A stretch of DNA of 25,831 nucleotides from Cyclobacteriaceae bacterium (lineage in GTDB: Bacteria; Bacteroidota; Bacteroidia; Cytophagales; Cyclobacteriaceae). The notes under the pieces were generated by a model. That model ran no database searches and was not told where the DNA came from. It saw nothing but the letters and a program-made list of their open reading frames with translations. Location of the stretch: positions 1-25,831 of the forward strand of contig JBPCUG010000474.1 in assembly GCA_051011275.1 (NCBI GenBank), read 5' to 3'. Positions 36 through 25,166 of the stretch are shown here, piece by piece. Each line of letters starts with the position of its first letter. The stretch's first letter is position 1. The position numbers and the translations under genes were made by a program.

Positions 36-461
36 CTATGCAACAGCCTCCTCAATGAATTCTATAACTTTTGATAAGACTGGATTGTGATCTTTATCGG
101 TTGGAAAAGTTCTCCCTTACCTTTTGATATATATCCTTTTTGGTATCTATCATAGTCAAACGACCGGCATTTTCCAAATACGTATCAACAGCCCTTTTAC
201 CTTCCAAAGTACTAGAAGCAGGTGCAATTAAAGCTGCTGCTACCCTCATCATAGTTTCTCCACCGCAAACTACCAAATCAGGTTCAGTCTGCCCAGCCGT
301 TTCCGGAATGATCAATTGACCGTTATCAAATTGTTTGGACCATTTTTCCCTAATATTTTCAGTTTGCTGGCTTATGCGAGGCAGAACAACACATGTGGTG
401 AATTGTCCAAATCGATCCAGATCTTTTTGTTATCGCTAACAGATGGTTTTTGTTTGTTCAT
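36..461 (-). pseudogene. Remnant of a DUF354-like (GT-B fold-like) gene with a large internal deletion and frameshifts
   Basis: ATG at 461 reads MNKQKPSVSDNKKIWIDLDNSPHVLFCLA* (TAA 374-372); KIWIDLDNSPH is what I recognise as the DUF354 N-terminus. A second frame from 384 reads LPRISQQTENIREKWSKQFDNGQLIIPE...DLVVCGGETMMRVAAAL...RAVDTYLENAGRL, a degenerate form of the family C-terminus (DLVISGGGTMNREAAAL...AVDxYL..GRL). A third frame (DHNPVLSKVIEFIEEAVA*, TAG 38-36) looks like the tail. Family assignment is by recall, not by search. Confidence 0.65.
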
Positions 462-491
462 GTAGCTTTGATTATAATTCAGCTAATTACG

Positions 492-1409
492 CTACGCATA
501 ACCTTTTTTGTAAAATCCGGCCACGTCCTTTGGTAAAGCATGCCAATATTGATCGGCATACTGCACTTCTATATACTTCAACAAATTCAAATATAACTCG
601 ATTGGAAACTCCTCCTCACCTGGGGTAGCATTGAAACTCATATAATCAGGATGAGTATTTACCAGTACCATACCACCATTTTTTACAATCCAGTCAATTT
701 TTTTTGTCCAGAATCCAATATCTCTTCTACGCATTAAAATAAAAGGAGTGAAATCCTGAGCAAGTGTATAAGGCAATTCCACGTAACTACGTTTTTTTCC
801 CATGTCCGTAACCATAAAAGGGAAAATAGTCCCTACTCCAGATGGCTGCGGCTCGAAGGGATCTGTATCAAAGGTAGATAGATCATATTCAACATCTAGG
901 TCTAACATCCATTGCAAATTTCGATGCATTGCCGGTGCCCTGAAACCCACTGCCTTCCATTCTGCAAGGTAATGATTGATCTTTTCGGCTCTACTGGTAA
1001 ATATTTGTTTTGACTGAAATAGTTTCCCATCGTGATTTAAACCATGAACCCCTACCTCAAATCCGTTTTCTTCCAAATCTTTTCGCAACTCTGGAGAAAC
1101 ACTGTACCGTTCCGGTACAAAATTAAAAGAGGACTTGAAGCCACGTGCCTTTTCAAGTTTCATTAGCTCCAGACATCGATCATGTCCTTTTTGGAACTCT
1201 ACATCATGAGTCAATACAACTGCAAATTGTTTGCCTTCAGGCCACCCTTTCCAACCAGGAGGTTTTGTCCCGGCACTTTCCAAAATGGGCCACTCACTAC
1301 GATACTTGGGTAGTCTAACCTTAACCCATCTTCTCCTTAACCACAATTGCAACCATCGTGGAATTATGGTTTTAAGTTGGTAATAAGCAGTTCTTAACAA
1401 TTTTAACAT
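492..1409 (-). CDS. Polysaccharide deacetylase-like protein (NodB/CE4 superfamily), about 305 aa
   Basis: CE4-type motifs VVLTHDVE, EVGVHGLNHDG (HxxxH metal ligands), GFRAP, ELPYTL and VNTHPDY. Start placed at ATG 1409 (MLKLLRTAYY), 1 nt after the NRPS stop, instead of the overlapping ATG at 1451 given in the ORF track. Confidence 0.8.
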   Translation of the reverse strand: MLKLLRTAYYQLKTIIPRWLQLWLRRRWVKVRLPKYRSEWPILESAGTKPPGWKGWPEGKQFAVVLTHDVEFQKGHDRCLELMKLEKARGFKSSFNFVPERYSVSPELRKDLEENGFEVGVHGLNHDGKLFQSKQIFTSRAEKINHYLAEWKAVGFRAPAMHRNLQWMLDLDVEYDLSTFDTDPFEPQPSGVGTIFPFMVTDMGKKRSYVELPYTLAQDFTPFILMRRRDIGFWTKKIDWIVKNGGMVLVNTHPDYMSFNATPGEEEFPIELYLNLLKYIEVQYADQYWHALPKDVAGFYKKGYA

Positions 1410-1410
1410 A

Positions 1411-4400
1411 TTAGAAATGCAAGGTTTTCGCTGGCGTTTCAATTGCCTCATTTATTTCCTTAGCCAACATTTCCGCAAATGGCTCTACCAGCATCCCACG
1501 TGGACTTATAGGCAACTTTCTAAGTTCCACTCCCTGACTCGCTAAACCTTGCCATCCAAATTGGGGGTCATCTAATCCTTTAAAAAACTTGTCCGGTTTT
1601 ATTAATACAATTTTTCCATCGAACCCAGTAGGTTTATATGCCAATTGGGCTTTGTCATTTAGTTCTGCTATTTTTAAGTGAATGTAATCGGAATCCGAAA
1701 CCTTTTTGAAACCATTTTTAAACCGTTCTTTTAACCGATCCAAGGCTACAGAGAATCTAGCCCTTTCTGCTTGATATTTTATTAAAAAGAACTTTGACTT
1801 GTTATTCGCTTTCATCAAATTTTCAAAGTGATATAAAAGGTTTTGAAACTTGTTATAAAGCACCGATAGCCTTGTTCTTTTGCTAAAATCAATCGATTGA
1901 ATATTATAAGACTCCAACATAATTACAGGCCCTACTTGTTTACCCATCTTTTGCAACTGACGGGCCATTTCAAATGCTATAGTTCCTCCTAGGCAATATC
2001 CTCCAAGAAAATAAGGGCCATCTGGAAATTTTTTAATGATCTCATCGACATAGTGTTGGGCCATTTCTTCCATTTGCGGAATGAAACTGGACCTCCCATC
2101 TAACCCTTGACTTTGCAAGGCATACACAGGCTGATCGTATCTGTTTAGAATTTGAGCTAACTCTCTATAAAGCAATACATTACCCTCGGCCCCGTGCACT
2201 AAAAATAATGGAGGACTGGAACCTTTTGGTTGCACAGGTACTAAAGAAGGCCAAGACGACTTTCCATTATTACTTTCGATCATTTTGGCTTGATGCTTAA
2301 TTGTTGGTGATTCAAATAGGGAAGCCAAAGGCAGGGATTTACCAAATTTCTTATCGATTCGCAGGAACAACTGGGCTGCCAATAAGGAATGCCCACCCAA
2401 ATCAAAGAAACCATCGGTGACACCAACACGTTTCACCCCCAGAAGCGACTCCCACATCTCCACCAGTTGAGATTCCAGTTCGCTAGTGGCCGGCTGGTAA
2501 TCTACACTCTCTGCCGGTACACCATCAGGTTCCGGTAACGATTTGCGATCAATTTTGCCATTCGGGGTCAACGGAAACGAATCTACCGTCATGTAAATCC
2601 CTGGTATCATATAATCAGGCAGTTCTTTTTGCAGAAAAGCTTTAATATCTCCACTATCAATCTCACCATTCTCCGGTATTATATATCCAACTAATCTAGC
2701 CGCTGGTCCTCCCACTCCTTGAACAGATACCACCGCATCGTGTACACTAGAATGGGATTTCAAGCTGGTCTCTATTTCTCCTAGCTCTATCCGGAAGCCA
2801 CGTACTTTTACTTGATAATCCATGCGGCCCAAGCATTCAATCTCCCCGTTGCGCAATATGCGGGCGTAGTCTCCGGTCTTATAAATCCGCGAGCTTCCCG
2901 TAACATCAAATGGGTTTGTTATAAATCTTTCTGCTGTCAGCTCCTCTCGATTTAGGTAGCCACGAGCTAAACCGTCACCTCCTATATGTAATTCCCCGAT
3001 AGCGCCACGAGGTACCAACTGTAGCTGAGAGTCCAATATATAAATCTGGGTATTGGCGATGGGACGACCTATAGCGATCACACCTTGGCGATTCTCCACT
3101 TTTTGTAATGTCGACCAAATAGTGGTCTCGGTGGGCCCATATTCATTCCATAAACTACCCCCTTTGTCAAGCAATTGTGTAGCCAGGTCTCTAGGCATGG
3201 CCTCGCCGCCACATAGTATCTTTAGGTTCGGAGTCTTATCCCAGCCTGCATCTATCATCAATCGCCAGGTGGCTGGCGTTGCTTGCATTACAGTGACATC
3301 ACGTGTAGACAGCTCTTTTACAAGCGCCTTACCGTCCAAAGTAGTTTGTTTATCTACTAACACTAACGTTGCTCCGGTTACCAAAGGCAGGAATATTTCT
3401 AATACCGCAATGTCAAAGGACAGCGTAGTTACCGATAGTAATACATCCGAGGCTTCTAAGCCAGGCTCCTTTTGCATTGAGTGCAAGAAATTCACAACAT
3501 TGCCATGTTCCAATTGCACCCCTTTGGGTTTACCCGTTGATCCTGAAGTGTAGATAACATAAGCCAGGTTGGAGGTTGATACCTCCGTAAGAGGCGTATT
3601 ATGAGCACGTTGTTCTATGACTCCCCAGTCCTGATCCAAAAGCACTAGATTACCCTCATAGTCGGGGAAGGTGTCTTTTAGGTTCTGAGTAGTAATCAGT
3701 ACTGATGAAGAGGCATCCTCTAACATATATAACAACCGATCTTTAGGAAACGCAGGGTCCATTGGAAGATAGGCCGATCCCGATTTTAGTATCCCAAGTA
3801 ATCCTATCACCATCTCTATACCCCGGTCCACGCACAAACCCACCAACTGATCAGGACCAACCCCCTGAGAAATTAAATGATGCGCCAATTGATTCGCTCG
3901 TTGGTTCAATTCTCCATAACTTATAGAGGTCTCTTTAAACTGTATAGCCACCTTATGAGGTGTGCTTGCAGCTTGAGACTCAAACCAATGGTGCAAACAC
4001 ATTTCTTCTGGATATTCACTAAAGGTATGGTTTACCTCTTCCATCAAGAATTGCTGCTCTCTAGGTGATAGAAGCGGAATATTGCCTATGGTTTGATCCG
4101 GATTTGTTGTTATTTGTTCCAACAAAATCCCGAAGTTGGTTATCATTCTTTCAATAGTGGCCCCTTCAAAAAGATCACAATTGTACTCAAGGCTTCCCTT
4201 TATTCCCTGCTCATTTTCCTTGAGCTCCAAATAAAGATCGAACTTAGATGTGCCTGTGGCCAACCTTTCAGGATTCATTTTAATTCCATCAAATGAGCTC
4301 TCTACTAATGGCATTGACTGTAAAACGAGCATCACCTGAAACAATGGATTACGACTCAAATCGCGAACAGGCTTAAGCTCTTCTACCAGCTTGTCCAATG

Positions 4401-7400
4401 GCATTTCCTGGTGTTTAAATGCATCTAAGATCGAAGATTTGTTACGATTTAAGAATTCTACAAAAGTAGGGTCTCCACTTAGGTCCGAGCGAAATACCAC
4501 TGTGTTTACAAAGTACCCAATTGAGTTTTCTAGCTGCTGAGTACTCCGATTGGCTAAGGGTGACCCAATAGTAATATCGTCTTGGCCGCTATATCTTTTT
4601 AACAAGACATTAAAAGCACATAAAATTGTCATATAAAGGGTACATCCCGTCTGTTTGGATAACTCCTTCAACTTATTACGCAATTCCGGGGTGAACTCAA
4701 TTGGCAGGCGGTCACCTTTAAAACTTTGTCGGGCCGGTCTTGGAAAATCAGTGGATAGCTCCAATGGTGGTAAGTTATCCCCTAATTTAGTCCTCCAATA
4801 TTTTAATTGTCTTTCCTCTTCGTCTTCATCGAACCAACTGCGTTGCCAAACGGTATAATCCGCATACTGAATCGGTGGAGGCCCTAACTCAATTTTTTTA
4901 TCGTTAGCCAAAGCATTGTAAACACTTGCTATTTCAGAGAGAAATACACCAAATGACCAGCCATCAAAAATGATGTGATGCAGAAGGAACAATACTAGAT
5001 GTTGCTGCTCTCCATATTTAATGACCACAGATTTTAGTAACGACTCCGCTTTGAGATCAAAACCTTTACCGGCATACTCATTAGCAAGATCTTTGGCGGC
5101 CGCCAAGGTGTTTTGAGGTTGATCGCTGATATTATGAAAATCAAAGTACAAATCTACATTGCTGCCAATTATTTGCTTTAGCTCGCCATCAATTTCACGG
5201 AATCCGGTTCGCAAGGATTCATGACGGTCAACCATCAGCTCCATTGACTCTTTTAATGCCTTGACGTTTAATTCTCCTTCAGCTCTGAAGCAAATGGGAA
5301 TGTTATACACCGCCAGTCCTGGCTCAAGTTGATCTAAAAACCATAATGCCTCCTGTTGAAACGACGGAGGGACATTACCCAAAACACTTTGGCCTGGCAC
5401 TATTGGTTCTCTTACAGCCGAGGTTTCTTGAGCGTCCAAGACTCCAGCGCCCGATTCCTCTTTAATGATCTTAGCCAAATGTTCTATGGTTGGCGATTCG
5501 AATAAAGTGACTAACGGTATGGCTTTGCCAAACTGTTTCTCTATACGCATTAATAGCTGTGCGGCCAGCAAAGAATGTCCCCCTAAATCGAAAAAACCAT
5601 CAATAACACCAACTCCGGTAACCCCCAATAGAGATTCCCACATTTCTACCAACTGGGATTCCACTTCGTCCCGAGCCTCTTGATAATCTGCGGTCTCGAC
5701 GCTGGCACCATCTGGGTCTGGCAGCGATCTGCGATCGATTTTGCCATTTGGAGTTAGAGGGAAAGATTCCAAAGTCATGTAGATGCCAGGTATCATATAG
5801 TCAGGCAGGTCTTTCTGTAGGTGACTTTTAATCTCCGCAGTGTCAATTTCACCATTCTCCGGTATGATATAACCCACCAATCGGGGCGCCAGTCCTTCTG
5901 CACTCTGTACGGATACTATTGCATCATGAACAGTAGCATGTGATTTCAAGCTGGTCTCGATTTCTCCCAGTTCAATCCGGAATCCCCTGACTTTGACCTG
6001 GTAATCTATTCTACCCAAACATTCAAGTTCACCGTTGGCCAATATGCGAGCGTAATCTCCAGTTTTGTAGATTTTAGAATTACTTGAAGGATCAAATGGG
6101 TTGGAGATGAACTTTTCTTCATTTAGTTCCGGTCGGTTTAAATAACCACGCGCCAATCCGTCACCTCCAATATGCAATTCTCCCACTACACCTCTGGGCA
6201 CCAATTGTAGATGTTTATCTAAAATGTATACTTGGGTATTGTTAACAGGTTTGCCTATTGTTACCTTACCTTCCCTATTCTCTACATGCTTAAAGGTGGC
6301 ATAAACGGTAGCTTCTGTTGGCCCATATCCGTTCCACATGCTAGCACTTTTATCTATCATTTTGGTGGCCAAATCTCTGGGTATCGGTTCACCGCCACAT
6401 AAAATCTTTAATTTCGGAGTTTGCTGCCACCCGGCTTCTACCATCAACCTATAGGTCGCTGGAGTGCCTTGTAATACTGTCACTGACCGCTTTTCAATTT
6501 CGGCCAGCAATGCCTTACCATCCATACTGACCTGCTTGCTTACCAATACCAATCTAGCTCCTGTAACCAGGGGTAAAAAAATCTCAAGTACTGAGATATC
6601 AAAAGACAAAGTGGTAACTGAAAGCAATATGTCCTCTTGTACGAGACCAGGTGTCACTTGAACTGACGATAACATATTGACCGCATTTTTGTGTTCTACC
6701 TGCACACCCTTGGGTTTTCCAGTTGATCCGGAAGTATAAATCACATAAGCTAGCTGCTCAGAACTAAATGAGATTGAAGGGTTGTGCCCTGGCTGGGTTT
6801 CAATACTGGACCAATCATCTATGAAAACCATTTCACCCTGATAATTTGGAAAAGTATCTGCCAAATCTCTGGTAGTCACTAATATTGATGAAGAGGTGTC
6901 CTCCAACATATATTGTAGTCTGTCCTTGGGAAACATTGGGTCCAAAGGAAGATATGCTGATCCCGATTTCAAAATAGCCAATAAGCCAGCAACCATTTCA
7001 ATGCTACGGTCTACACATATACCGATTATTTGATCCGGTTTGGCACCTATCTGCAGCAGGTAATGTGCAAGTTGGTTTGCTTTGATGTTTAAGTCCTTAT
7101 AAGTAATCGATTGCTGCTTGTAAAGAATAGCTATGTGGTCCGGGTGGAAACCGACCTGATTTTCAAACCATTGATGTATACACACCTCCTTAGGGTATGT
7201 ATTTTTTGTGTCATTAATATCCTTCAAAAGAAAGGACTTTTCTCCTTCTGGGAGTATGGAAATACTTTCGATGTGCTGGTTAGGATCCAAAGCGATTTCA
7301 TCCAATAGAATTTGGAAATTTTCTATCATTCTATCTATCGTCCCACTTTCAAATAATTCGGTATTAAACTCTACTACTCCATCGGCACCATTTTCGGTCT

Positions 7401-14900: not shown

Positions 14901-15280
14901 ATAGTTACCTCTTCGATTTCAATTTCAATTTCATTGGATTCAATTGGTTGTTGAACAGGCTGATCAGAAATCTTTATAAATTCACTCGACAATATTTCAT
15001 GTCGAGCTAGTATGGCGTTGAGAGCCTTTTGTAACAAGACCCGGTCAATTTCCCCATCTATACATAATGCTACTGGCACATTATCGGAGGGATGGCCGGA
15101 ATAAAGTTGATATAAAAACCACAGTCTTTCTTGAGCAAAGGAAAGTGGTGCCGCCTCTTTATTTGCTCGTGGAATAATAGGTATATTCGATATTCCAATG
15201 CCTTCTGATTTCAACAGAGCAGCAAATTCGCTCCTTTGTTCAGGAGTTAGATTGGCAATATTTTTTAACAAATCTTCCAT
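11954..15280 (-). CDS. Monomodular NRPS C-A(Thr)-T, 1108 aa
   Basis: C domain HHIICDG. A domain FDFSVWEIW / TVLNQTP / VIFGGE / NMYGITETTVHV gives the code DFWNIGMVHK, the canonical Thr signature. T domain SFFDLGGHSL. Confidence 0.95.
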   Translation of the reverse strand: MEDLLKNIANLTPEQRSEFAALLKSEGIGISNIPIIPRANKEAAPLSFAQERLWFLYQLYSGHPSDNVPVALCIDGEIDRVLLQKALNAILARHEILSSEFIKISDQPVQQPIESNEIEIEIEEVTIDVQDGTDSKMHELVREVAQSTFELAKWPLIKAKLISQSPTKHVVILNLHHIICDGLSMGILFNELSILYQAFLEGRAPNLPELSIQYADYAQWQRQWMEEELIEDQLKYWEKQLKGCPPVLELPRNRPRPSQQDFNGAKHFVEIDSARYQKLQRLAQSNQCTLFMVVSAIYNTLLYRYTGSEDVIIGTPMAKRNRKELQHMIGLFLNMLVLRTNFSANPTFDQLLKQVKDVTLEAYQNEDVPFEKLVERLSPERDMSYHPMFQVVLQISNQTELQLGDAKLSPFWFDSGTSQYDLALHLFENETGLKGYFEYSTSLFDPETIERMAGHFETLIDSVIADPTLPVSSLRLLTEQEIETFEKTTERKIDTSQSNLSIIDLFEDQVKQNPKLTAISYQGDTLDYDTLNRKANQLANYLLSRGISKGDLVGICADPSLELIVGILAILKSGGAYLPIDLSYPKERLAFMLEDAKAPMLLTQKALADKIPENAPEVIFLDDVNINNSGQSNPGRSFDPTALAYVIYTSGSTGKPKGVKVSHYNVVRLFQSTEHWFNFTSSDVWTLFHSYAFDFSVWEIWGALLFGGKLVVVPQMTTRDPELFYDLLVSERVTVLNQTPSAFNQLIKAEESKRTTDQLSLRTVIFGGEALDLQSLAPWFERHGDDTPKLVNMYGITETTVHVTYRPLSARDLESGSVIGEAIPDLKVYIFDSALQPVPLGIPGEMFVGGAGVSEGYLERPELNKSRFIKNPHRESETLYRTGDLARFITESDIEYLGRIDHQVKIRGFRIELGEIESVLMQQEIIREAAVLVREDTPGDKRLVAYLVANDKDSVDPGTLRNHMLDQLPEYMVPANYVLMESFPITPNGKLDHKALPIPEIQRNDKTEYTPPQTELEIKVADIWLEELHISKIGIHDSFFDLGGHSLSLTKLSFRLKKELGFNVSLGHFYKAPTIFGIIKQQEKLDEKPSEGHSISKVTRKAYRANEK

Positions 15281-18200: not shown

Positions 18201-19793
18201 TACCAAATCTTTTGATTGATCCGGTGCTAAACCTTGAGGCACCTTACTTGGGTCTGGATTTTGGAGTAACTCCGATGCTTGTTTTCGATCTTCAGACACT
18301 AAAAATCTTCGATGCTTCAAGGCTTTTCTACCTACTTGGAGGGTGCTGGTAATGTCTTGAAATGAGAAATCTGTAGAGGCGAGATAAGCAGAGAGATTCT
18401 CCGTCAGATGGCCAAGAGCAGTAGCACTATGACTAGACCAGACCATAAGTCGCGGTTTGGGAGATTGCTCTGCCGATTTTCTGCTGGGTGCTTCCTCTAG
18501 GACGATATGTGCATTGGTACCGCCAATTCCTAACGAAGTTACTCCTGCCCTCCTGGGGGGGCCATTAGTGGTCCACTCACGAAGCCGGTCATTGATAAAA
18601 AATGGGCTTTGTGGGAAGTCAATTTCGGGGTTGGGTGTTTCGAAGTTTAAGGTTGCTGGAATTTTTTGGTGTTTTAAAGCCAACGCTGTTTTGATCAATC
18701 CAGCGACTCCTGCGGCAGCATCCAGATGTCCTATGTTGGACTTCACGGAGCCGATAGCACAGTATTGGTTTTTGTCCGTATCCATTCTGAAGGCTTTTGT
18801 TAGCGCAGTAACTTCAATGGGATCTCCCAAGTAGGTACCGGTTCCATGAGCCTCAATATATGAAATGCTATCAGCGCTTACTCCAGCACTTGCTAAGGCT
18901 TCTACCACTACCTCTGCTTGGCTGTTTACGCTTGGTGCAGTGTAATCTGTTTTTCGCGAACCATCGTTATTGACGGCACTGCCTTTTATTACAGCATGTA
19001 TGGTATCATTGTCCTTTACGGCATCAATTAATCTTTTGAGAGTAACGATACCTACACCGCTTCCGAAAATCGTACCTTGGGCACTGGCATCAAAAGGGCG
19101 GCAATGTCCATCCGGTGAAAACACGGCCCCTTTGCTGTAAAAATGACCTAACTCATTTGGTACTCTTATTGAAACGCCACCGGCTAAGGCCAGATCACAC
19201 TCCTCATTGATTAAACTTTGACAGGCACTATGTACAGCTACTAATGAAGTGGAGCAAGCAGTCTGCACTGTAACACTGGGACCTTTTAAATTCAATTTAT
19301 AGGAAACCCTGGTGGTCAAAAAGTTATTATCATTCCCAATAAGCGTCGATAAGTAATCAGTTACGAATTTGGAGTTGTGTCCGCTGTTGATGAAATAAGT
19401 GTTCATAGCCGTTCCTCCGTAAACACCTATCGGCCCATTAAAATCTTCGGGGTTGTATCCCGCATGTTCCATAGCATGCCAGGCGCACTCCAGGAAAATC
19501 CTCTGTTGCGGATCCATTAATACCGCCTCTCTAGGAGAATATCCAAAAAATTTGGCATCAAAAGACTTGTAATTTTCTAAAACCGGCGAGGCTTTTACGT
19601 AACTAGGATCATTGACAAAAGCTGCATCGACACCTGCTTTGATAAGCTCTTCTTCGCTAAAGAAGGAAATTGACTCCACACCATTAGCAAGATTTTCCCA
19701 ATATGATTCGATGGAATCAGCACCGGGGAATCGCCCCGCCATTCCGATTATAGCAATATCAAACTCACTGATATTTTGCAAACTCTGCTGCAT
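15282..19793 (-). CDS. Single-module cis-AT type I PKS: KS-AT-KR-ACP, 1503 aa
   Basis: KS triad VQTACSTS (Cys 19254-19256), EAHGTGT and NIGHL. AT GHSVG (Ser 17913-17915), RGRLF and VAAH. KR TGGLNGVG, HSAGMIDD, PKVEG and YVSAS. ACP LGGNSL. No DH or ER between AT and KR. Confidence 0.95.
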   Translation of the reverse strand: MQQSLQNISEFDIAIIGMAGRFPGADSIESYWENLANGVESISFFSEEELIKAGVDAAFVNDPSYVKASPVLENYKSFDAKFFGYSPREAVLMDPQQRIFLECAWHAMEHAGYNPEDFNGPIGVYGGTAMNTYFINSGHNSKFVTDYLSTLIGNDNNFLTTRVSYKLNLKGPSVTVQTACSTSLVAVHSACQSLINEECDLALAGGVSIRVPNELGHFYSKGAVFSPDGHCRPFDASAQGTIFGSGVGIVTLKRLIDAVKDNDTIHAVIKGSAVNNDGSRKTDYTAPSVNSQAEVVVEALASAGVSADSISYIEAHGTGTYLGDPIEVTALTKAFRMDTDKNQYCAIGSVKSNIGHLDAAAGVAGLIKTALALKHQKIPATLNFETPNPEIDFPQSPFFINDRLREWTTNGPPRRAGVTSLGIGGTNAHIVLEEAPSRKSAEQSPKPRLMVWSSHSATALGHLTENLSAYLASTDFSFQDITSTLQVGRKALKHRRFLVSEDRKQASELLQNPDPSKVPQGLAPDQSKDLVFMFPGGGAQYPNMGKDLYQGEVKYREEVDLCLDFLSKEMDFDLKPLLFPEESALAEAREAFKRPSIGLPALFISSYAMARLWDSWGIKPSAMTGHSVGEYVAACLSGVISWQDALYMVVIRGRLFETLPKGSMLSIPMSEKEVTKYLKDDLTLAAINTPSLCVASGPEKSIDQLFEVLAKEGVEAKKLKVDVAAHSPMIDVILEDFDKALQKIKLKPPEIPYISNVTGSWITKEMATSNQYYQDHLRSAVRFNDTLEELLKVPGRIFLEVGPGRNLSTFVNQHPLRSKEQTAYPSMRHPKEEGSDLIFQLNALGKLFLEGIKINWEEVNGKQPLNRVPLPVYPFDRSEHWYSAKQNQLTARSRQELKNWGYVPTWKKRANLNLGTLELPTGAWVIMGANTELESALEDSLQSQGKSVHRFTSSLNKKNNSDIEIDSTDKEEFERLMTIVKESDINILYCCLFEGNTDQYLANFMALSDTASVCGHMVDKKFRIGVISKDTFEITGEEKIVTGGALLIGPTRVIPKEYPHIKMMQLDMQLIDHQSLQLSPKILNEFSRSSVEPIRVLKERSTWSMHFEPVTMSPGIPSASKFKKQGVYAITGGLNGVGLEVAKHLANEYQVKLALLGRSKIPSKDSWDKLLADSSLDRRTKERIEGLKFLEEKGIEVLTPIVDVGDKEAVAKTFNQLKQHFGSIDGVIHSAGMIDDSPISQKTRETLQNVLSPKVEGTNNLKDQVAALNIPLFIQFSSINAYLAPTGQIDYVSASAFLDANSQPSATIPDCTTININWPGWKEVGILTDLPEGPWKEKAMENAITNREGLEVFERIVSSGLHHIVIYPRDFQSAYGSSLTFTGLDAPEEEIEVQEEMSFDSSIEGPRNQLEEEISKIWRSRLGIKQLGIYENYYELGGNSLLGTQIIADINKSTNVSIDIKDLFAAPTVASLASLVDEKQVTQQDNSNKLADLLKKVQSPGES

Positions 19794-19801
19794 AAGTGTA
19801 G

Positions 19802-22800
19802 CTACCGCCGGTTACGCCCTCTTTTTCGTTCTCTTCTATTCGCGCCTCTTTGCCGACTTGTTTCAGCGTTTACCGTGGACGAAGAATCCCCTTGAAGTGT
19901 ACTTACCATGGAACTAATGGAAGGGCTCTCAAAAAGATTGACAATTGATATATCCAGGTTTAGATTTCTCTTTAACAAAGCTACTAACTGAACCCCTTTC
20001 AAAGAAGTACCACCTATCTCGAAAAAATTATCATTAATCCCAATATTGGAAGAATTTAATACTTGCGACCATATTTCTGCAATGGCCTTTTCCAAATCAT
20101 TCTCTGGAGCAATATATTCAGCACTGCTTACCTTCACATCAACTACTGCGTGAGACGATTGTATTTGTTTCAAAATTGCTGCTGGGGTAGATAATTCACC
20201 AGCAATTTCCGCTAGAATTTGATTGCTTACCAGCACGGGAGACTGGACCGTTGAACTTAAGTCTTGGCTATCACTCGCCGGTTGACCAGCATCAGGATCG
20301 AAAGCTAAGGTCTTCGCAATTGCTACCGGTAAGTCAAAACGATGCCCAGTTTCAAGATCCGACATAAATTCAGTAGCGATGCTCTCCAGGAATTTTAGGG
20401 CTGGAAGATTTTTGGTGGTAGGAATAAAATTAAGAACTACCTTTTCCAAGCCTTGGTTGGAGGCCTTCTCTCCTAGGGTTTGAACCATCTTGTGTGCCAC
20501 GCCTTTACCTAATACCCGGCAACTGAGCAAAAAAGTATCCACATGAAGTGCCGCTTGTTGAAGCTTGTATAAAATCACACCTACTAGTCCATAGTCTCCA
20601 AAGCGATCTCGCACACGTACGGTTAGCGCGTGCAGTTCGTCGCTTTTTAACAGTTTTCTAATTTCAGACTCAGATCTTCGTATAGTAGTAAGATTGAATT
20701 GATTGGTTCGATGAGTCAATTGCGAAATACGGGGAAAATCTTCTGAAGTAGGTTCTTCAATTGTAATATCCAAATTTAAGCTTCCAATGAAATCCTTTAG
20801 AGTTAGTGATTCTTCTTTAAGGTGCTCCCTTTGAATATTCTGCTGGTACATCTTGGTGCGTTGCTGGTCCTCCTTGGTCACCTCCATATGGTCGAAGGCC
20901 CAGATATTTTTTAAAAATTCGGGGATTTTTAAAGGGTCTTGTGGTAAAGTGAAAGTCAACACAGACGGACATGCTGCAGATACTTCAGCAGTTTCCATCG
21001 CATTGTCGTCAATAAAAATAAAGCTGTCCAATCCCAGATTAAGCTCTTGAGCCAATATTTTAATATTATCTGATTTTGCCTCCCAGTTTATCTTATGAGC
21101 CACTATATGGTCCAGACTTAATAACATATCATCTCTTTGCTGAAATATGTCCAAAACATCTTGTTCGGCATTTTTACTACAAAGACAAAGGATCATGCCC
21201 TCCTTCGTTTGTTGGATCATAAAATCATGAAGAAACTTGTACTCCTCATCAATGGTGACACCTTGAACACCCTCTTCTCCAACTACCCCTTTCCAAAGTG
21301 TATTATCACAATCCAGTACAATTACCTTTCGGGGGGTGCTATGTAAGCTGTAGAATTTTCTGGCTACTGTAGAGCCCAGTGCTGCAAAATACTCATTAGT
21401 ATAAGGGACGTGACCGATCTCATTTCCTTCGGGGTCGAAGTATTCCGGGACTTCATAGTAACGATCTACTTCTGAGGAACCAAATGCATGCAAGTTCTTT
21501 ACCTTAGAAATTCGGCTTAGCAAAAGATCCTCTAATTTTTGATACCGATTCTCCAACTCTTGGATTTCTTTTACTCCCGGAGATCGAGGGGCCACCATAA
21601 CAAGATAGGGAACGGACGAATTGGCGGCTACAGACTCCAGGGTGGCGGATAGATCGTTGATATTTTTTTCCACCTCTTCCCAACGATTGTCCGCTTCTTC
21701 TTGCGAGACCTGCCCCTTTCTGGTTGCAAAAATATTATACAGACCTGAATGCTGCAATAAATCCTCTTCTTCAATATGAAACTCGAAGCCTCGCTTCTCC
21801 AATATTTCCTTTACCTCAGCAATAACCGGACCCTCAGTGTCATGAACTTCCATCACAATCTGCTTAATCTTGGGCCAATTGTCGTCGGCAATTCCATGAA
21901 GAATAGGCAACTCGCTTTTTTCAGCATCAATTTTCAGCAAATCAATGCTTTCAAGGTTATTTTCTTCGATAATGTCCGCAATAGAAATAAGTTGACAGGT
22001 GAAATTCTTGCTTTGCATACGATCCACCATGATTTCGTCCAAATAGGCATCTAAGGCGCCGGTATCTGCGGTAGAACTCTCTCTTAGCATATTTCGAACT
22101 ACTGCACTTATAGCTTCCTTATCCAATTCGGCGTCTGCATTGAAGCTTGAAAAAACTGAAGATTTTTCGTAAAAAGTAAATTCAGCTTCTCTCTTCTGGT
22201 CAGCAACGCCATAGGCGAAAGCTTTAACATTAGACCCATATAATTGAGCATTGGCGGATAGAATCTCATGTACTACCGGCGAAGGCTCATACGCATAGAC
22301 TCTTGGGTTTTTACATTGTTGGTTTACCCATAGTGTGAACATTCCGATATTTGCTCCTATATCTAAAATGCAGTCACCATCCTTGATAACAATATCGTGC
22401 TTGTTATAACTTTGATCGACAAAAATTTCTTGATACAAATACTCCGTTTCGTATTGGTTTAAGTGTGCGATCTTCAACCCGTTTGGCAATACGTAAGAAT
22501 CCTGCTCGCCAATGATAGCCGCCAACTCCGGGCCGGAAAAATTAGATTGTAGTTGATGACCTTTGCGCATCCAGTCCTCCAATCCCAATAGTAGTATATT
22601 GGCCCCTTGGGCATTACTACGAGTTTGACTGCTGGGATCTAATAGTTCCTGAAACACCTGATTATATGGTGCAATTTCTATGTTGAATGGAAGTTTAAGT
22701 GTACTGCTCCAAAAAGCCAGAGAGCCTTGCAAGGGATCCGCCGTAAATGTACTGGTTATTACAAGTTTAGTGCTAGCTATCTTTGTACTATGATCTAAAA

Positions 22801-23605
22801 AACTGTAAGAAGCACCTATCAGAGATCCAAAATGTTCTCCATTTACATCATAAAGAAAAACATTAGCAGAATCTTGCCTTTCATTAAGGACTGCTTTACA
22901 ATAAAAATCGTCTTGAATAGTTCGAATTAGGCGCACCTCTTGGAAACCTCCTAGTACAAAGGTTTTGCCTGCTGAACTTGTTAGGCTTGCTAGTACTTGA
23001 ACGCAAGCATCTAATAACACAGGATGAACCGCAAACTGCTGGATTTCCGAACTAACTTTATTGCTAAGCTTTATCTTACCTAAAGCAGTTCTTTCTCCCA
23101 GCCAAACTTGATCAACCACTTGGAATTGTGGTCCGTATTGATTGCCATTTGCTAGCAATCGCTCATAGCAGTCCTGTCCAGATAGAATTTCTGGTTGTTC
23201 GGAGTTAACAGAATCTAAATCAAGATCCTCAATGATTGATCTATCAGGGACTGAATGAGGAATAGATAGCGAAACCAGGGACCCGTTTGGTTCTGAGTCA
23301 CCCCTCTGGGAGCACCAAATTTCTGTCGCGCTTTCCCCGATGTTTGTTGAAAAGTGTAGCTTTTCTTCTTTTCCGCCAATTAAAAAAAGTTGCCTATAAT
23401 TTATATCAGTCAAATATAACTCTGAATAATTTAATTTACTCGAGGCAAACTGGAGGGCTTGATCTATATAAAATGATCCTGGGAGGACCACCATGTCTTG
23501 AAAGCCATGGTCAGGTAAAAACGAATATGTCTCTATATTTGGCTCAAAACTCCATATTTCTAATTGGTTGTTAAGTAGCCGGTCGTTCTTTTCGCGTAGC
23601 TGCAT
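19802..23605 (-). CDS. Multidomain loading protein: PKS-type DH, FkbH-like glyceryl transferase/phosphatase with an inserted FkbM-family O-methyltransferase, and ACP; about 1267 aa
   Basis: DH motifs HGFQDMVVLP (23480-23509) and LLDACVQ (about 23000). FkbH N-region TFTADP...APYNQVFQELLDP...EDW. FkbM LDIGANIG, YEPSP and LLKIDAE. HAD motif DCDNT (about 21300), FIDD, RTNQFNLT and SCRVLG (Cys 20519-20521). ACP FEIGGTSL. Start placed at ATG 23605 rather than TTG 23638. Confidence 0.9.
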   Translation of the reverse strand: MQLREKNDRLLNNQLEIWSFEPNIETYSFLPDHGFQDMVVLPGSFYIDQALQFASSKLNYSELYLTDINYRQLFLIGGKEEKLHFSTNIGESATEIWCSQRGDSEPNGSLVSLSIPHSVPDRSIIEDLDLDSVNSEQPEILSGQDCYERLLANGNQYGPQFQVVDQVWLGERTALGKIKLSNKVSSEIQQFAVHPVLLDACVQVLASLTSSAGKTFVLGGFQEVRLIRTIQDDFYCKAVLNERQDSANVFLYDVNGEHFGSLIGASYSFLDHSTKIASTKLVITSTFTADPLQGSLAFWSSTLKLPFNIEIAPYNQVFQELLDPSSQTRSNAQGANILLLGLEDWMRKGHQLQSNFSGPELAAIIGEQDSYVLPNGLKIAHLNQYETEYLYQEIFVDQSYNKHDIVIKDGDCILDIGANIGMFTLWVNQQCKNPRVYAYEPSPVVHEILSANAQLYGSNVKAFAYGVADQKREAEFTFYEKSSVFSSFNADAELDKEAISAVVRNMLRESSTADTGALDAYLDEIMVDRMQSKNFTCQLISIADIIEENNLESIDLLKIDAEKSELPILHGIADDNWPKIKQIVMEVHDTEGPVIAEVKEILEKRGFEFHIEEEDLLQHSGLYNIFATRKGQVSQEEADNRWEEVEKNINDLSATLESVAANSSVPYLVMVAPRSPGVKEIQELENRYQKLEDLLLSRISKVKNLHAFGSSEVDRYYEVPEYFDPEGNEIGHVPYTNEYFAALGSTVARKFYSLHSTPRKVIVLDCDNTLWKGVVGEEGVQGVTIDEEYKFLHDFMIQQTKEGMILCLCSKNAEQDVLDIFQQRDDMLLSLDHIVAHKINWEAKSDNIKILAQELNLGLDSFIFIDDNAMETAEVSAACPSVLTFTLPQDPLKIPEFLKNIWAFDHMEVTKEDQQRTKMYQQNIQREHLKEESLTLKDFIGSLNLDITIEEPTSEDFPRISQLTHRTNQFNLTTIRRSESEIRKLLKSDELHALTVRVRDRFGDYGLVGVILYKLQQAALHVDTFLLSCRVLGKGVAHKMVQTLGEKASNQGLEKVVLNFIPTTKNLPALKFLESIATEFMSDLETGHRFDLPVAIAKTLAFDPDAGQPASDSQDLSSTVQSPVLVSNQILAEIAGELSTPAAILKQIQSSHAVVDVKVSSAEYIAPENDLEKAIAEIWSQVLNSSNIGINDNFFEIGGTSLKGVQLVALLKRNLNLDISIVNLFESPSISSMVSTLQGDSSSTVNAETSRQRGANRRERKRGRNRR

Positions 23606-23680
23606 ATTTGGTAGTTCTCTAAAAAAATTGAAGCCCAATCAGGGACACCAAACAAGGGTTCAGGTGGTTCATTCAAGGCG

Positions 23681-23766: not shown

Positions 23767-23793
23767 ATAATTTATTGATAATCAATTAATTAT
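23767..23793. promoter_or_regulatory. 13-1-13 imperfect palindrome, candidate operator
   Basis: ATAATTTATTGAT-A-ATCAATTAATTAT: 12 of 13 arm positions are complementary. It lies in the divergent intergenic region. Confidence 0.4.
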
Positions 23794-23948
23794 GTGTTTT
23801 CTTTTATATTTATGAGATAAATACCGATAATTCACGGCTAAGTCCAAATATGCAACTTAATAATCTATTAAGAAATTGATTAATGTTATAAACAGAATGT
23901 GTGTAATATTTGCGTTCCAGTAGCCTCATTCATCGAATTTTTATGATG

Positions 23949-23972
23949 ACCAATAATTGTTAAATTATTGGT
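23949..23972. promoter_or_regulatory. Perfect 10-bp inverted repeat with a 4-nt spacer, candidate operator or hairpin
   Basis: ACCAATAATT-GTTA-AATTATTGGT. Confidence 0.4.
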
Positions 23973-24101
23973 TTTCCATACAGATATGGGGCACAACTTG
24001 TTCATAGATGGTTGAAATCAAGTTAGTGTAATTTTTCTTGTATTATTTCAGTTTTAGCTGTTATGTTTTTGAGTAAACTTGTACCACTAAATCAAATATG
24101 A

Positions 24102-25166
24102 ATGGGTTACAATTTGCAGCTTTCGTTTAATCGGGGACATTTACCTGCCTTGGACGGCCTTAGAGGATTGGCCATAACTCTGGTACTTCTACACCATAGT
24201 TTTGGCTTCTTAGGTTCCCCCTTAGGACCATTCGTTCATGTAGGTTGGATCGGAGTGGATTTGTTCTTTGTACTTTCGGGATTCCTTATCACGGGCATTT
24301 TGGTAGATTCCAAAGAGAAACCCAATTATTATAGAAATTTTATTGGTAGACGTACGCTGAGAATTTTTCCTCTTTATTATCTGTCATTGACCCTGTTTTT
24401 TATTTTCGTGCCCCAGGAAAATTATGGCAATTATTTCGTTAATAACCAAATATATTTTTGGACTTATACTCAGAACCTGCTATTTGCTTTCACGGATTGG
24501 CCTAGTCATAAGATTCTCAATCACTTTTGGTCTTTAGCCATTGAAGAACAATTCTATCTATTTTGGCCCTTAATTATTTGGTTATTTTCTACAAAAAATC
24601 TAGTAAGAACCAGTATAATTGGAATAGTAATCAGCTTAGTAATTAGAAACCTTTGGACCGAGGTTCCATTTGGGTACACTTTTACACTGGCTAGAATTGA
24701 TACCTTGCTGATTGGAGCGCTAATCGCCATCATGATTCGCAGTAACAAACAAATCCTTGAAAGAATGGCTCCACTAGCAGGGGCGCTCGCACTAGTGACG
24801 CTTATTAGTATCATCGGGATTAGCGAAAGTACTGCCATGGACAAACCCCTGATGATTAGATTTGGCTACACCGCTGCCGCAGTCATGTTCGGAGCACTTC
24901 TTATCTTCAGCTTCGACACAAATCGGTTAGGAAAGTTTGTTAAAAATTGTCTGGACGTCCAGGTATTAAGATTCTTAGGCAAGTATTCCTATGGAATTTA
25001 CGTTTATCACTGGATTTTATACAATACCATTTTTCGTTCATTAATGGATGTATTTTTGAATCGATGGTTAGCAACCATTGTTTATCTTACTATTACCTTA
25101 ATATTAGCCTTATTGAGCTACCATCTTTTCGAGTCGAGATTTTTAAAACTTAAAAAATATTTTTAG
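24102..25166 (+). CDS. Acyltransferase family 3 (OafA/YrhL-like) integral membrane acyltransferase, 354 aa, no SGNH domain
   Basis: Family motifs ALDGLRGLAI, GVDLFFVLSGFLIT, RRTLRIFPLYY, HFWSLAIEEQFYLFWP, LGKYSYGIYVYHW and SYHLFE, with about 10 hydrophobic segments. Confidence 0.92.
   Translation: MGYNLQLSFNRGHLPALDGLRGLAITLVLLHHSFGFLGSPLGPFVHVGWIGVDLFFVLSGFLITGILVDSKEKPNYYRNFIGRRTLRIFPLYYLSLTLFFIFVPQENYGNYFVNNQIYFWTYTQNLLFAFTDWPSHKILNHFWSLAIEEQFYLFWPLIIWLFSTKNLVRTSIIGIVISLVIRNLWTEVPFGYTFTLARIDTLLIGALIAIMIRSNKQILERMAPLAGALALVTLISIIGISESTAMDKPLMIRFGYTAAAVMFGALLIFSFDTNRLGKFVKNCLDVQVLRFLGKYSYGIYVYHWILYNTIFRSLMDVFLNRWLATIVYLTITLILALLSYHLFESRFLKLKKYF

What the first reader, a model, noticed from the sequence alone, without database searches (positions are those of the whole stretch)
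36..25166. Possible peptide/polyketide-to-glycan transfer system: assembly line co-transcribed with a polysaccharide deacetylase and a DUF354-like gene, next to an AT3 acyltransferase
Seen in sequence: the gene directly after the TE-bearing NRPS (1 nt gap, so probably translationally coupled) is a CE4-like deacetylase, followed by a DUF354-like remnant. The only other neighbours are a family-3 membrane acyltransferase and a membrane protein. The TE has a Cys nucleophile but no catalytic His. Established: CE4 enzymes free amines on N-acetyl sugars, AT3 proteins acylate surface glycans, and acyl-Cys thioesters are readily aminolysed. Inference: the product, roughly [O-methyl-glycerate-derived acyl]-ketide-Thr-X-Gly*-Gly*, may be transferred as an amide onto a de-N-acetylated sugar or cell-surface polysaccharide. 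The megasynthase would then decorate a glycan rather than release a diffusible metabolite. I know of no characterised pathway with this full combination.
Basis: partly seen in the sequence, partly recalled or inferred. Interest (0 to 1): 0.85.

Follow-up and report, generated by a model that had tools for sequence, protein, structure and literature searches.

The report
Assembly line coupled to sugar deacetylase
A six-module polyketide-peptide assembly line ends in an unusual cysteine release domain that lacks the usual histidine, and it is followed at once by a conserved sugar-deacetylase-like gene; this pairing recurs inside surface-polysaccharide gene clusters of at least five bacterial phyla, so the product is probably attached to an amino sugar, though this is untested.

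Summary
On the minus strand, a DH-FkbM-FkbH-ACP loader, one PKS module and four NRPS modules (Thr, Ser-like, Gly-like, Gly) end in a thioesterase (TE). This TE has a Cys nucleophile and Pro where the catalytic His should be. One base later a 305-aa CE4/NodB-fold gene (CE4L) starts, followed by a DUF354 remnant.

The odd TE is not decay. 69 of its 120 nearest relatives share Cys, Pro-for-His, Glu-for-Asp and a new lid His, and nearly all sit behind a Gly module.

CE4L belongs to a very large unnamed family (at least 7,998 clusters). It normally lies in Wzx/Wzy-type polysaccharide operons, right after a FemAB-like transferase. In 10 of 83 loci the gene just upstream is this TE instead. Six of the seven closest TE relatives have a CE4L within 8 kb.

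So transfer of the product to a de-N-acetylated sugar is supported by gene context, but nothing shows the chemistry. The nearest sister cluster has no glycosyltransferases nearby.

This copy carries an in-frame TAG, which is GAG in a relative. The AT3 gene is not conserved with the line.

Earlier follow-ups in this scan reported similar thiotemplate lines in glycan loci on other DNA.

The parts
19802..23638 (-). Loading protein DH-FkbM-FkbH-ACP (1278 aa)
   Evidence: Pfam PS-DH, Methyltransf_21 and PP-binding. NCBIfam FkbH TIGR01686 at 310 bits and FkbM TIGR01444. The same architecture heads the sister cluster L173.
15282..19793 (-). PKS module KS-AT-KR-ACP (1503 aa)
   Evidence: Pfam ketoacyl-synt, Acyl_transf_1, KR, PP-binding.
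11954..15280 (-). NRPS module 1, C-A-T. The A-domain code is DFWNIGMVHK (Thr).
   Evidence: Pfam. Code read by motif anchors. The match to the Thr code is from my own knowledge.
8663..11944 (-). NRPS module 2, C-A-T. The A-domain code is DVGHFGLVDK (Ser-like). It is split by an in-frame TAG at 9830-9832.
   Evidence: Both ORFs are in the same frame and the A domain is divided between them. A roughly 95%-identical population in run X2 reads C at 9832 on the + strand, which gives GAG (Glu).
2254..8643 (-). NRPS modules 3 and 4, C-A-T-C-A-T. The codes are DILQLGGVYK (Gly-like) and DILQLGEIWK (Gly, 9 of 10).
   Evidence: Pfam. Codes.
1414..2253 (-). Terminal TE domain of the Pro class. Key residues: Cys2217 (1993-1995); Pro2381 at the canonical His position (1501-1503); Glu2244 at the acid position (1912-1914); Glu2153 in the HGAEGN loop (2185-2187); lid His2322 (1678-1680).
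   Evidence: PF00975 matches only its first half. Alignments. Model pLDDT 93 with a type-I TE fold. Residue coordinates.
492..1409 (-). CE4/NodB-fold deacetylase-like protein (CE4L, 305 aa). It has two N-terminal amphipathic helices and no signal peptide.
   Evidence: D69, H122, H126 and H253 are invariant in 42 homologues; R157 is conserved in at least 90%.
94..461 (-). DUF354 pseudogene remnant: N-terminal and C-terminal pieces in different frames, with the middle deleted.
   Evidence: The same remnant is on sister contig C300. An intact DUF354 follows CE4L in L025 and L051.
24102..25166 (+). AT3 family membrane acyltransferase, divergent from the operon.
   Evidence: PF01757, E 4.4e-32. Not present beside the sister cluster L173.
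25179..25736 (+). 185-aa polytopic membrane protein of unknown family.
   Evidence: No Pfam or NCBIfam hit. It is 38% identical (E 4e-23) to the divergent gene beside sister cluster L173. The Atlas search gave nothing informative.

Best explanation
The operon encodes a hybrid PKS-NRPS. It builds an acyl-peptide: a methylated glycerate-derived starter, one ketide, then Thr, a Ser-like residue, a Gly-like residue and Gly. The chain ends as a glycyl thioester.

The terminal domain belongs to a large, conserved TE subfamily with Cys nucleophile, Glu for Asp, and Pro at the His position. I propose it takes the chain onto its Cys and does not hydrolyse it. Instead it passes the chain to an amine.

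The translationally coupled CE4/NodB-fold enzyme would make that amine by removing an N-acetyl group from a cytoplasmic amino sugar, either nucleotide-linked or undecaprenyl-linked. The result would be an N-(acyl-peptidyl) sugar, which enters a surface polysaccharide or is released as a glycoconjugate.

Shown here: the gene order, the folds, the conserved motifs, the family-wide active-site pattern, the Gly-module rule and the co-occurrence with glycan genes.

Inferred: Cys acylation, aminolysis, the identity of the acceptor and the fate of the product.

In this MAG the line is interrupted by one nonsense codon, so this copy may be inactive or polymorphic.
For: 1. The TE-CE4L pair recurs.
- TE is the gene directly upstream of CE4L in the window, L011, L012, L025, L030, L035, L051, L078 and L086, and lies about 1.9 kb upstream in L033 with a 216-aa ORF between.
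- CE4L also directly follows TE in metagenome loci L100, L105 and L112.
- Six of the 7 closest TE relatives have CE4L within 8 kb.

2. TE-linked CE4Ls are scattered on the CE4L tree and group by taxonomy. The best tree needs 7 changes of the label. This fits repeated juxtaposition.

3. CE4L is at home in polysaccharide loci. A FemAB-like gene is directly upstream in 44 of 83 loci, with DegT, Wzc, WecB and DUF354 nearby.
- L035 reads Wzc, initiating transferase, GFO, hexapeptide acetyltransferase, DegT, [C-A(Gly)-T-TE], CE4L, GT4, GT2, Wzx, GT4, Wzy.
- L174 and L195 place a NodU-type carbamoyltransferase between TE and CE4L.

4. The association is specific. CE4L, FemAB or DUF354 flank 11 of 40 TEs that lack the canonical His (38 Cys) against 0 of 40 His-bearing TEs, nearly all Ser/His (Fisher p 4e-4; related loci are not independent).

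5. The active-site pattern is conserved, not decayed. In 69 of the 120 nearest TEs, Cys is present in 69/69, Pro at the His position in 69/69, Glu at the acid position in 62/69, the HGAEGN loop Glu in 62/69 and the lid His in 60/69.

6. The last A domain before a Pro-class TE carries a Gly-type code in about 50 of 57 cases. So the family handles an unhindered glycyl thioester.

7. CE4L has the CE4 motif residues. Its structural neighbours include ArnD, which acts on an undecaprenyl-linked sugar.

8. A 92%-identical sister contig, C300, continues past the DUF354 remnant into WecB, DegT and a hexapeptide acetyltransferase.

9. Precedents exist. NodB (CE4) frees an amine that NodA acylates from an acyl carrier protein (PMC5080398). 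The Pks13 TE releases its product onto trehalose (PMC12933137).
Against: - No experiment or structure shows the TE using an amine acceptor.
- The nearest sister cluster (L173/L011, also L012) has CE4L but no glycosyltransferase, Wzx or Wzy genes within 10 kb.
- One close TE relative (L194) shows no CE4L in the 2.6 kb available.
- Only about a quarter of the more distant Pro-class TE loci show CE4L, FemAB or DUF354.
- CE4L occurs far more often without any TE, so its role does not depend on one.
- The starred branches of the CE4L tree do not exclude a single origin of the pair.
- The window copy has an in-frame TAG and a decayed DUF354.
- C300 is a related strain or a second copy, not proven to be the window's own flank.
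- The A-domain codes were read by motif anchors and compared with codes recalled from memory.
Confidence: 0.5

Rival explanations
1. This is an ordinary secondary-metabolite cluster. The TE releases a free linear or cyclic lipopeptide-like molecule. CE4L is a tailoring or maturation enzyme acting on the small molecule, for example by removing an N-acetyl protecting group. The glycan genes nearby are incidental.
For: - The sister cluster L173 is compact: GNAT, loader, PKS, NRPS, PKS, NRPS-TE, CE4L. It has no GT genes within 10 kb, and a GNAT plus a deacetylase could form an acetylate/deacetylate pair.
- The TE has an ordinary type-I TE fold.
- His-bearing Cys-TEs such as AB3403 are its nearest solved relative.
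Against: - Most CE4L loci examined lie in polysaccharide-type surroundings without any megasynthase. In 44 of 83 a FemAB-like gene is directly upstream.
- In L035 a TE-bearing single module sits inside a Wzx/Wzy operon.
- The loss of the canonical His and Asp across 69 relatives argues against standard hydrolysis or cyclisation.
Confidence: 0.25
2. In this MAG the locus is a decaying, non-functional remnant, whatever its ancestral role. A nonsense codon splits module 2 and the downstream DUF354 gene is already destroyed.
For: - In-frame TAG at 9830-9832, where a related population has GAG.
- DUF354 is reduced to about 120 codons in two frames, and the same remnant is on C300.
- No FemAB and no intact DUF354 were found elsewhere in the 88%-complete MAG.
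Against: - The other roughly 22 kb of megasynthase reading frame is intact, with its motifs.
- It is a single base change, and it lies where the source-like run X1 has no contig. That fits a polymorphism or an assembly or sequencing error.
- CE4L and the TE keep every family-conserved residue.
Confidence: 0.3
3. CE4L is the missing half of the release machinery. The His-less TE only holds the chain on its Cys, and the metal-dependent CE4L supplies the catalytic water or base in trans. That would make a two-protein thioesterase.
For: - The two genes are tightly adjacent and often overlap: 1-nt gap in the window, 4-nt overlap in L011, shared base in L012.
- The TE lacks the canonical His and Asp.
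Against: - CE4L is mostly found with no TE at all, so its conserved function cannot be TE completion.
- The Pro-class TE has its own conserved candidate catalytic residues: the loop Glu, the lid His and the Glu at the acid position.
Confidence: 0.1

Closest known systems
Nod-factor N-acylation: NodB (CE4 deacetylase), NodA (N-acyltransferase), NodF/NodE (dedicated carrier protein and ketosynthase), NodU (carbamoyltransferase)
   Same: A CE4/NodB-fold enzyme is paired with a carrier-protein-borne, custom-made acyl group, in a locus that builds a glycan. In the Nod system the deacetylase frees the amine that is then N-acylated from the carrier protein (PMC5080398). Some related loci here even carry a NodU-type carbamoyltransferase next to CE4L.
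   Different: There is no NodA homologue here; a Cys TE domain fused to the assembly line would do the transfer. The donor is a multi-module PKS-NRPS product ending in Gly, not a fatty acid. CE4L is only distantly related to NodB-type Pfam members (20.7 bits, below cut-off). The acceptor is unknown.
Pks13 thioesterase domain of mycobacteria
   Same: It is a type-I TE at the end of a megasynthase that releases its product onto a sugar rather than water (PMC12933137). Pks13 is the best NCBIfam hit of the window's TE (56 bits) and is among its structural neighbours.
   Different: Pks13 TE has the Ser-Asp-His triad (own knowledge) and forms an ester with a trehalose hydroxyl. The window's TE has Cys, Glu and no canonical His, and an amide is proposed.
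Cys thioesterase of AB3403 (Acinetobacter baumannii NRPS, PDB 4zxh/4zxi)
   Same: It is the best solved sequence relative of this TE family (E 1.8e-38) and has the same GG(W/Y)C(F/L)GG nucleophile elbow.
   Different: AB3403 keeps the canonical His (LPGDHSSIM). The window's subfamily has Pro there, together with co-varying changes in the oxyanion loop, the acid position and the lid.
XrtA/PEP-CTERM exopolysaccharide accessory genes: FemAB-family TIGR03019, deacetylase TIGR03006, acyl-CoA ligase TIGR03098
   Same: In relatives of the window's genome the CE4L neighbours hit these models: FemAB at 149 and 101 bits and the ligase at 373 bits. CE4L itself hits TIGR03006 weakly. The pairing of FemAB with a deacetylase is the same.
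   Different: All scores are far below the curated cut-offs (CE4L scores 24.9 bits against 276). These are therefore different subfamilies, and those families are themselves uncharacterised.
LpxC / LpxD of lipid A biosynthesis and ArnD of lipid A modification
   Same: LpxC and LpxD follow the logic of deacetylating a sugar amide in the cytoplasm and then N-acylating it from a carrier protein (own knowledge). ArnD is a CE4-fold enzyme acting on an undecaprenyl-phosphate-linked sugar (function from own knowledge) and is a structural neighbour of CE4L.
   Different: There is no sequence-level membership. LpxC has a different fold. ArnD is a deformylase with only 13% identity.

Membership tests
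Carbohydrate esterase family 4 / NodB homology domain | Distorted (beta/alpha) barrel NodB fold | tested here: met
   AlphaFold model with pLDDT 93. Foldseek matches 3rxz at E 7.5e-12 with TM 0.61-0.65, and also HP0310, PuuE, ArnD, PdaC and SpPgdA.
Carbohydrate esterase family 4 / NodB homology domain | Metal-binding and catalytic motif residues: Asp of motif 1, His-x3-His of motif 2, Arg-x-Pro of motif 3, His of motif 5 | tested here: met
   THDVE (D69), HGLNH (H122, H126), FRAP (R157) and NTHP (H253). D69, H122, H126 and H253 are invariant in 42 homologues and R157 is conserved in at least 90%. These residues align to the same motifs of 3rxz. Assigning roles to the residues rests on my own knowledge of CE4.
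Carbohydrate esterase family 4 / NodB homology domain | Score above the Pfam PF01522 gathering threshold | tested here: not met
   20.7 bits against a cut-off of 23.1. None of the 120 listed homologues has a precomputed Pfam hit. CE4L is a divergent, unnamed subfamily.
Carbohydrate esterase family 4 / NodB homology domain | De-N-acetylase or esterase activity on a sugar substrate | not testable with these tools
   Needs an enzyme assay.
Type I thioesterase domain of NRPS/PKS (alpha/beta hydrolase, PF00975) | Alpha/beta-hydrolase TE fold with a helical lid, at the C-terminus after a carrier domain | tested here: met
   PF00975, E 9.6e-25, profile positions 2-107 only. Model pLDDT 93. Foldseek matches 7crn, 4zxh, NocB, Vlm2 and Pks13 TEs with TM 0.6-0.7.
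Type I thioesterase domain of NRPS/PKS (alpha/beta hydrolase, PF00975) | Nucleophile in a GxS/CxG elbow | tested here: met
   GGYCLGG. Cys is present in 69 of 69 Pro-class and 46 of 49 His-class relatives.
Type I thioesterase domain of NRPS/PKS (alpha/beta hydrolase, PF00975) | Catalytic His after the last core strand and Asp at the acid position | tested here: not met
   Pro replaces His: SPRGML aligns with GDHSSIM of 4zxh. Glu replaces Asp in 62 of 69 subfamily members. Whether the conserved lid His substitutes could not be tested.
DUF354 (PF04007) | Full-length match to the roughly 349-position profile | tested here: not met
   Only profile positions 2-15 and 261-312 are recognisable, in two frames, with E 0.096 and 0.034. 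It is a pseudogene remnant.
Acyltransferase family 3 (PF01757) | Full-length match above threshold | tested here: met
   111.9 bits against a cut-off of 31, profile positions 2-325 of 326. A functional link to the operon is not supported: no AT3 gene lies beside sister cluster L173.
Nod-type deacetylate-then-N-acylate system | A NodA-family N-acyltransferase | tested here: not met
   No NodA family appears among the Pfam or NCBIfam hits reported for any ORF of the window. The resemblance is one of logic, not of membership.
XrtA-system polysaccharide deacetylase (TIGR03006) | Score above the curated cut-off | tested here: not met
   24.9 bits against a cut-off of 276.2.

The most novel reading that the evidence does not exclude
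The Pro-class Cys TE is not a hydrolase at all. It would be a new kind of assembly-line-fused N-acyltransferase that couples NRPS/PKS products, through a C-terminal glycine, to an amine freed by the CE4-like enzyme on a lipid-linked or nucleotide-linked sugar. Bacteria of many phyla (Bacteroidota, Ignavibacteriota, Calditrichota, Desulfobacterota, Chloroflexota and others) would then decorate their surface polysaccharides with custom peptide or polyketide chains. That would be an unrecognised class of glycoconjugate, and a reason why many 'orphan' clusters never yield a diffusible product.
Probability: 0.35. Interest if true: 0.85.

Novelty: new variant of a known kind. Interest (0 to 1): 0.68.

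Why it matters
Genome mining treats every NRPS/PKS cluster as the source of a free small molecule. If a whole TE subfamily instead hands its product to sugars, several things follow.

- Many orphan clusters in uncultured Bacteroidota, Ignavibacteria, Calditrichia and others would be cell-surface tailoring systems. That would explain missing products and point to new glycoconjugate chemistry.
- The TE subfamily has at least 69 of the 120 nearest relatives, taken from more than 1,400 hits. It would give a sequence signature that predicts this behaviour: GYC(L/M)GG, HGAEGN, LE(S/T)YN, and P(R/K)GML in place of GxHxxML, after a Gly module.
- The CE4-like family (at least 7,998 clusters, no Pfam model, named 'hypothetical') would receive a first functional context.
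- Mechanistically, a thioesterase fold that works without its canonical His and Asp is of interest to enzymologists.
- The idea is directly testable with T-TE constructs, peptidyl-SNACs and amino-sugar acceptors.

Tried and rejected
- Complex prediction of the TE domain with CE4L scored 0.00 and returned 'no answer'. This is no evidence either way.
- Seven literature searches found no paper on this TE subfamily, on the CE4-like family, or on NRPS products attached to polysaccharides. They found only the Nod and Pks13 analogies. The 'DUF354' query matched only unrelated DUF354x families.
- The Atlas search for the 185-aa membrane protein gave only unnamed transmembrane clusters, with scores at most 0.86.
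- A PDB sequence search with an intact DUF354 gave only a non-significant UDP-GlcNAc 2-epimerase hit, E 0.72.
- I considered that the His-less TE was a sign of decay. I rejected this because the pattern is conserved in 69 relatives with co-varying changes.
- I considered that Arg of SPRG replaces His. I rejected this as a general rule because the position varies: R 51, K 14 and H 4 of the 69 Pro-class relatives in the protein set, and also A, G and P in the metagenome set.
- I considered that the TE is related to the XrtA 'hydrolase 1/2' pair noted in earlier scan reports. Neither TIGR03100 nor TIGR03101 is among its NCBIfam hits.
- I considered that TE simply replaces FemAB. This is only partly true: TE and FemAB co-occur in L030, L093 and L174.
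- I could not measure distances in the TE model, because the tools do not return coordinates.
- The terminator and promoter scans were at background level.


Full report
WHAT IS THERE

The window is the whole of contig C474, the longest contig of a fragmented MAG: 4.1 Mb, 828 contigs, 42.6% GC, 88% complete. A same-family genome that carries a homologous gene is Splendidivirga corallicola, so the organism is a Cytophagales-type member of the Bacteroidota.

Seven reading frames lie head to tail on the minus strand with gaps of 1-30 nt.
- 23638-19802: DH-FkbM-FkbH-ACP (FkbH TIGR01686 at 310 bits).
- 19793-15282: KS-AT-KR-ACP.
- 15280-11954: C-A-T.
- 11944-8663: C-A-T, cut by an in-frame TAG at 9830-9832.
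- 8643-1411: C-A-T-C-A-T-TE.
- 1409-492: a 305-aa gene.
- 461-94: two fragments of a DUF354 gene.

On the plus strand are an AT3 acyltransferase (24102-25166) and a 185-aa membrane protein (25179-25736).

I read the A-domain specificity residues by motif anchors. They give DFWNIGMVHK (the Thr code), DVGHFGLVDK (Ser-like), DILQLGGVYK (Gly-like) and DILQLGEIWK (Gly, 9 of 10). The reference codes are from my own knowledge.

THE OBSERVATION

All parts of it hold.
- The NRPS stop (1413-1411) and the next ATG (1409-1407) are 1 nt apart. Homologues confirm this start.
- The 305-aa protein (CE4L) misses the Pfam threshold for Polysacc_deac_1: 20.7 bits against 23.1. Its AlphaFold model (pLDDT 93) is nevertheless a CE4/NodB barrel. 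The nearest structures are 3rxz, HP0310, PuuE and ArnD.
- The CE4 motif residues D69, H122, H126 and H253 are invariant in 42 homologues, and R157 is conserved in at least 90%.
- CE4L has no signal peptide. It begins with two basic amphipathic helices, which suggests a cytoplasmic, membrane-peripheral enzyme (inference).
- The DUF354 remnant is weak but collinear with the profile. It is 45.5% identical over 101 aa to an intact DUF354.

THE THIOESTERASE

The TE has GGYCLGG, with Cys2217 at 1993-1995. In two independent alignments the canonical His aligns with Pro2381 of SPRGML. One alignment is to His-bearing relatives. The other is to the solved Cys-TE of AB3403 (4zxh, LPGDHSSIM).

This is a family trait. 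Of the 120 nearest TEs, 69 form a 'Pro class':
- Cys in 69/69.
- Pro at the His position in 69/69.
- Glu instead of Asp at the acid position in 62/69.
- HGAEGN instead of HGAGGD in the oxyanion loop (Glu in 62/69, Asn in 69/69).
- A lid His (Y-x-H-L) in 60/69, where the His class has Glu.
The residue after the Pro varies (R, K, H, and A/G/P in metagenome relatives), so it is not a general substitute.

The domain still folds as a type-I TE with a three-helix lid (pLDDT 93). So the canonical triad is gone, but the site is under strong selection. The lid His or the loop Glu may act as the base. I could not measure distances.

A further family rule emerged. The A domain directly before a Pro-class TE has a Gly-type code in about 50 of 57 NRPS-terminated members. 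His-class members show no such rule. The subfamily therefore handles glycyl thioesters.

THE LINK TO THE DEACETYLASE AND TO GLYCANS

CE4L belongs to a very large unnamed family. There are at least 7,998 clusters at E 1e-20 or better. None of the 120 listed has a Pfam hit, and they are annotated mostly as 'hypothetical'. The family is 54-72% identical across Bacteroidota, Ignavibacteriota, Calditrichota, Desulfobacterota, Nitrospirota, Chloroflexota, Fibrobacterota and others.

I examined 83 loci. The gene directly upstream of CE4L is:
- a FemAB-like transferase in 44;
- the Cys TE of an NRPS or PKS in 10;
- a stand-alone adenylating enzyme in 2;
- an AAC(3)-like gene in 2;
- Wzc in 2;
- DegT in 2.
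Fifteen loci have some other gene there, and six are cut by a contig end. DegT, Wzc, WecB and DUF354 are common nearby.

In S. corallicola the locus reads ACAD, ACAD, FemAB, amino-acid adenylation enzyme, DUF354, unknown, AAC(3)-like, CE4L, GDSL, FemAB, Wzc.

In a Calditrichia genome (L035) a single C-A(Gly)-T-TE and CE4L sit between DegT and GT4 in an operon. That operon also holds Wzc, an initiating sugar transferase, a GFO oxidoreductase, a hexapeptide acetyltransferase, GT2, Wzx and Wzy.

In Ignavibacteria, an intact DUF354 follows TE-CE4L in L025 and L051, as the remnant does in the window. In L174 and L195 a NodU-type carbamoyltransferase lies between TE and CE4L.

Searching from the TE side gives the same picture.
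- Six of the seven closest TE relatives have CE4L within 8 kb on the same strand.
- In a metagenome sample, CE4L, FemAB or DUF354 flank 11 of 40 TEs that lack the canonical His (38 Cys, 1 Ser, 1 of unclear class) and 0 of 40 His-bearing TEs, nearly all Ser/His (Fisher p 4e-4; related loci are not independent).

On a CE4L tree the TE-linked copies are scattered and follow taxonomy. The window's copy, with L011 and L012, is sister to Cytophagales copies from non-NRPS loci. The best tree needs 7 changes of the label, but the well-supported branches alone do not exclude a single origin.

THE WINDOW'S OWN SURROUNDINGS

The contig ends 90 nt past the remnant. Contig C300 matches window 4-590 at 92% identity. 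It includes the same remnant and the last 32 codons of CE4L. It continues into a co-directional WecB-type 2-epimerase and a convergent DegT aminotransferase plus hexapeptide acetyltransferase. That set is typical of 2,3-diacetamido-sugar pathways (own knowledge). C300 is a related strain or a second copy, so this is indirect evidence for the window's left flank.

The AT3 gene is not found beside the sister cluster L173. The 185-aa membrane protein is: it is 38% identical (E 4e-23) to the divergent gene there.

The TE was not found in 12 same-family genomes sampled. CE4L was found in 2 of 36 same-family genomes, both in non-NRPS loci. The assembly line is therefore rare in this family.

STATE OF THIS COPY

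The TAG lies in the motif AKP-x-GH. A population about 95% identical, in run X2, reads C at 9832 on the plus strand, which gives GAG (Glu). The source-like run X1 has no contig across the site. The stop is thus a recent single-base change, a polymorphism or an error. Together with the old DUF354 remnant, it leaves open whether this copy works.

MECHANISM PROPOSED

The chain reaches the last T domain as a glycyl thioester and moves to Cys2217. CE4L removes an N-acetyl group from a cytoplasmic sugar, either nucleotide-linked or undecaprenyl-linked. The freed amine attacks the acyl-Cys, and the N-acylated sugar goes on into a polysaccharide or a smaller glycoconjugate.

Only the anatomy and the co-occurrence are shown. 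Each chemical step is inference.

The logic has precedents:
- NodB, NodA and NodF/NodE (PMC5080398).
- Pks13-TE release onto trehalose (PMC12933137).
- LpxC and LpxD (own knowledge).

Against the model:
- The sister cluster L173/L011 keeps CE4L but has no GT genes within 10 kb.
- L194 shows no CE4L in the short flank available.
- Most distant Pro-class loci show none of these genes within 6 kb.

The rivals are a free metabolite with CE4L as a tailoring enzyme, a dead locus, and CE4L as a trans-acting release partner. They are scored separately in the report.

NOVELTY

Seven literature searches found no description of this TE subfamily, of the CE4-like family, or of their pairing. Earlier follow-ups in this scan described thiotemplate lines in glycan loci on other DNA: e1-4838574, e1-4633673, e1-3920282, e1-4322274 and e1-960523. 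The present case adds four things:
- the conserved TE-CE4L gene pair;
- the Pro-class active-site signature;
- the Gly-module rule;
- a full six-module line.

I class it as a new variant of a known kind, namely carrier-protein acyl transfer to sugars. There is a fair chance that the TE subfamily is a new type of acyltransferase.

Noticed in passing
window 9830-9832: An in-frame TAG splits the A domain of NRPS module 2 (AKP-stop-GH). A roughly 95%-identical population in another sample (run X2) has GAG at the same codon. The source-like run has no contig over the site.
   Followed up: partly
window 25179-25736; L173 2-454 (minus strand): The 185-aa membrane protein with no known family is conserved beside the sister assembly line, divergently oriented (38% identity, E 4e-23). 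It may belong to the cluster, for example in export, anchoring or immunity.
   Followed up: partly
G000 contig C300, 1-3024: A second contig of the MAG repeats window 4-590 at 92% identity. It continues into WecB, DegT and a hexapeptide acetyltransferase. It is either a co-assembled sister strain or a second copy of the locus.
   Followed up: partly
P0002-P0120 (last A domains); L011, L012, L025, L035, L051: NRPSs ending in the Pro-class Cys TE almost always have a Gly-type specificity code in the final A domain. DILQLGMIWK alone occurs 35 times. His-class relatives do not show this.
   Followed up: yes
L174 5052-6758 (minus strand); L195 12098-13804: In Ignavibacteria-type loci a NodU/CmcH-family carbamoyltransferase lies between the Cys-TE NRPS and CE4L. 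This is a further Nod-like element.
   Followed up: no
L011 15197-16810 (minus strand); L012 11054-12658 (minus strand); G000 contig C579 9287-10030: A 534-537-aa protein with Polysacc_deac_1 and Laminin_G_3 domains lies convergent to CE4L in both sister clusters. It has a 60%-identical homologue on another contig of the window's MAG.
   Followed up: no
window 4312-4650 and 10796-11133: These are 76% identical DNA segments in the C-A region of modules 2 and 3 (the only internal repeat found in the contig). This fits module duplication.
   Followed up: partly
L007 12225-13313 (minus strand) and homologues in L025, L051, L054, L057, L064, L077: A roughly 360-aa protein with no Pfam or NCBIfam hit repeatedly follows DUF354 in these polysaccharide loci. 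DUF354 and this protein look like a conserved pair.
   Followed up: no
G000 contig C70, 1-1976: A prolyl-PCP-dehydrogenase-like ACAD is followed by a stand-alone adenylating enzyme that runs off the contig end. This resembles the ACAD/A-domain cassette next to CE4L in Splendidivirga.
   Followed up: no
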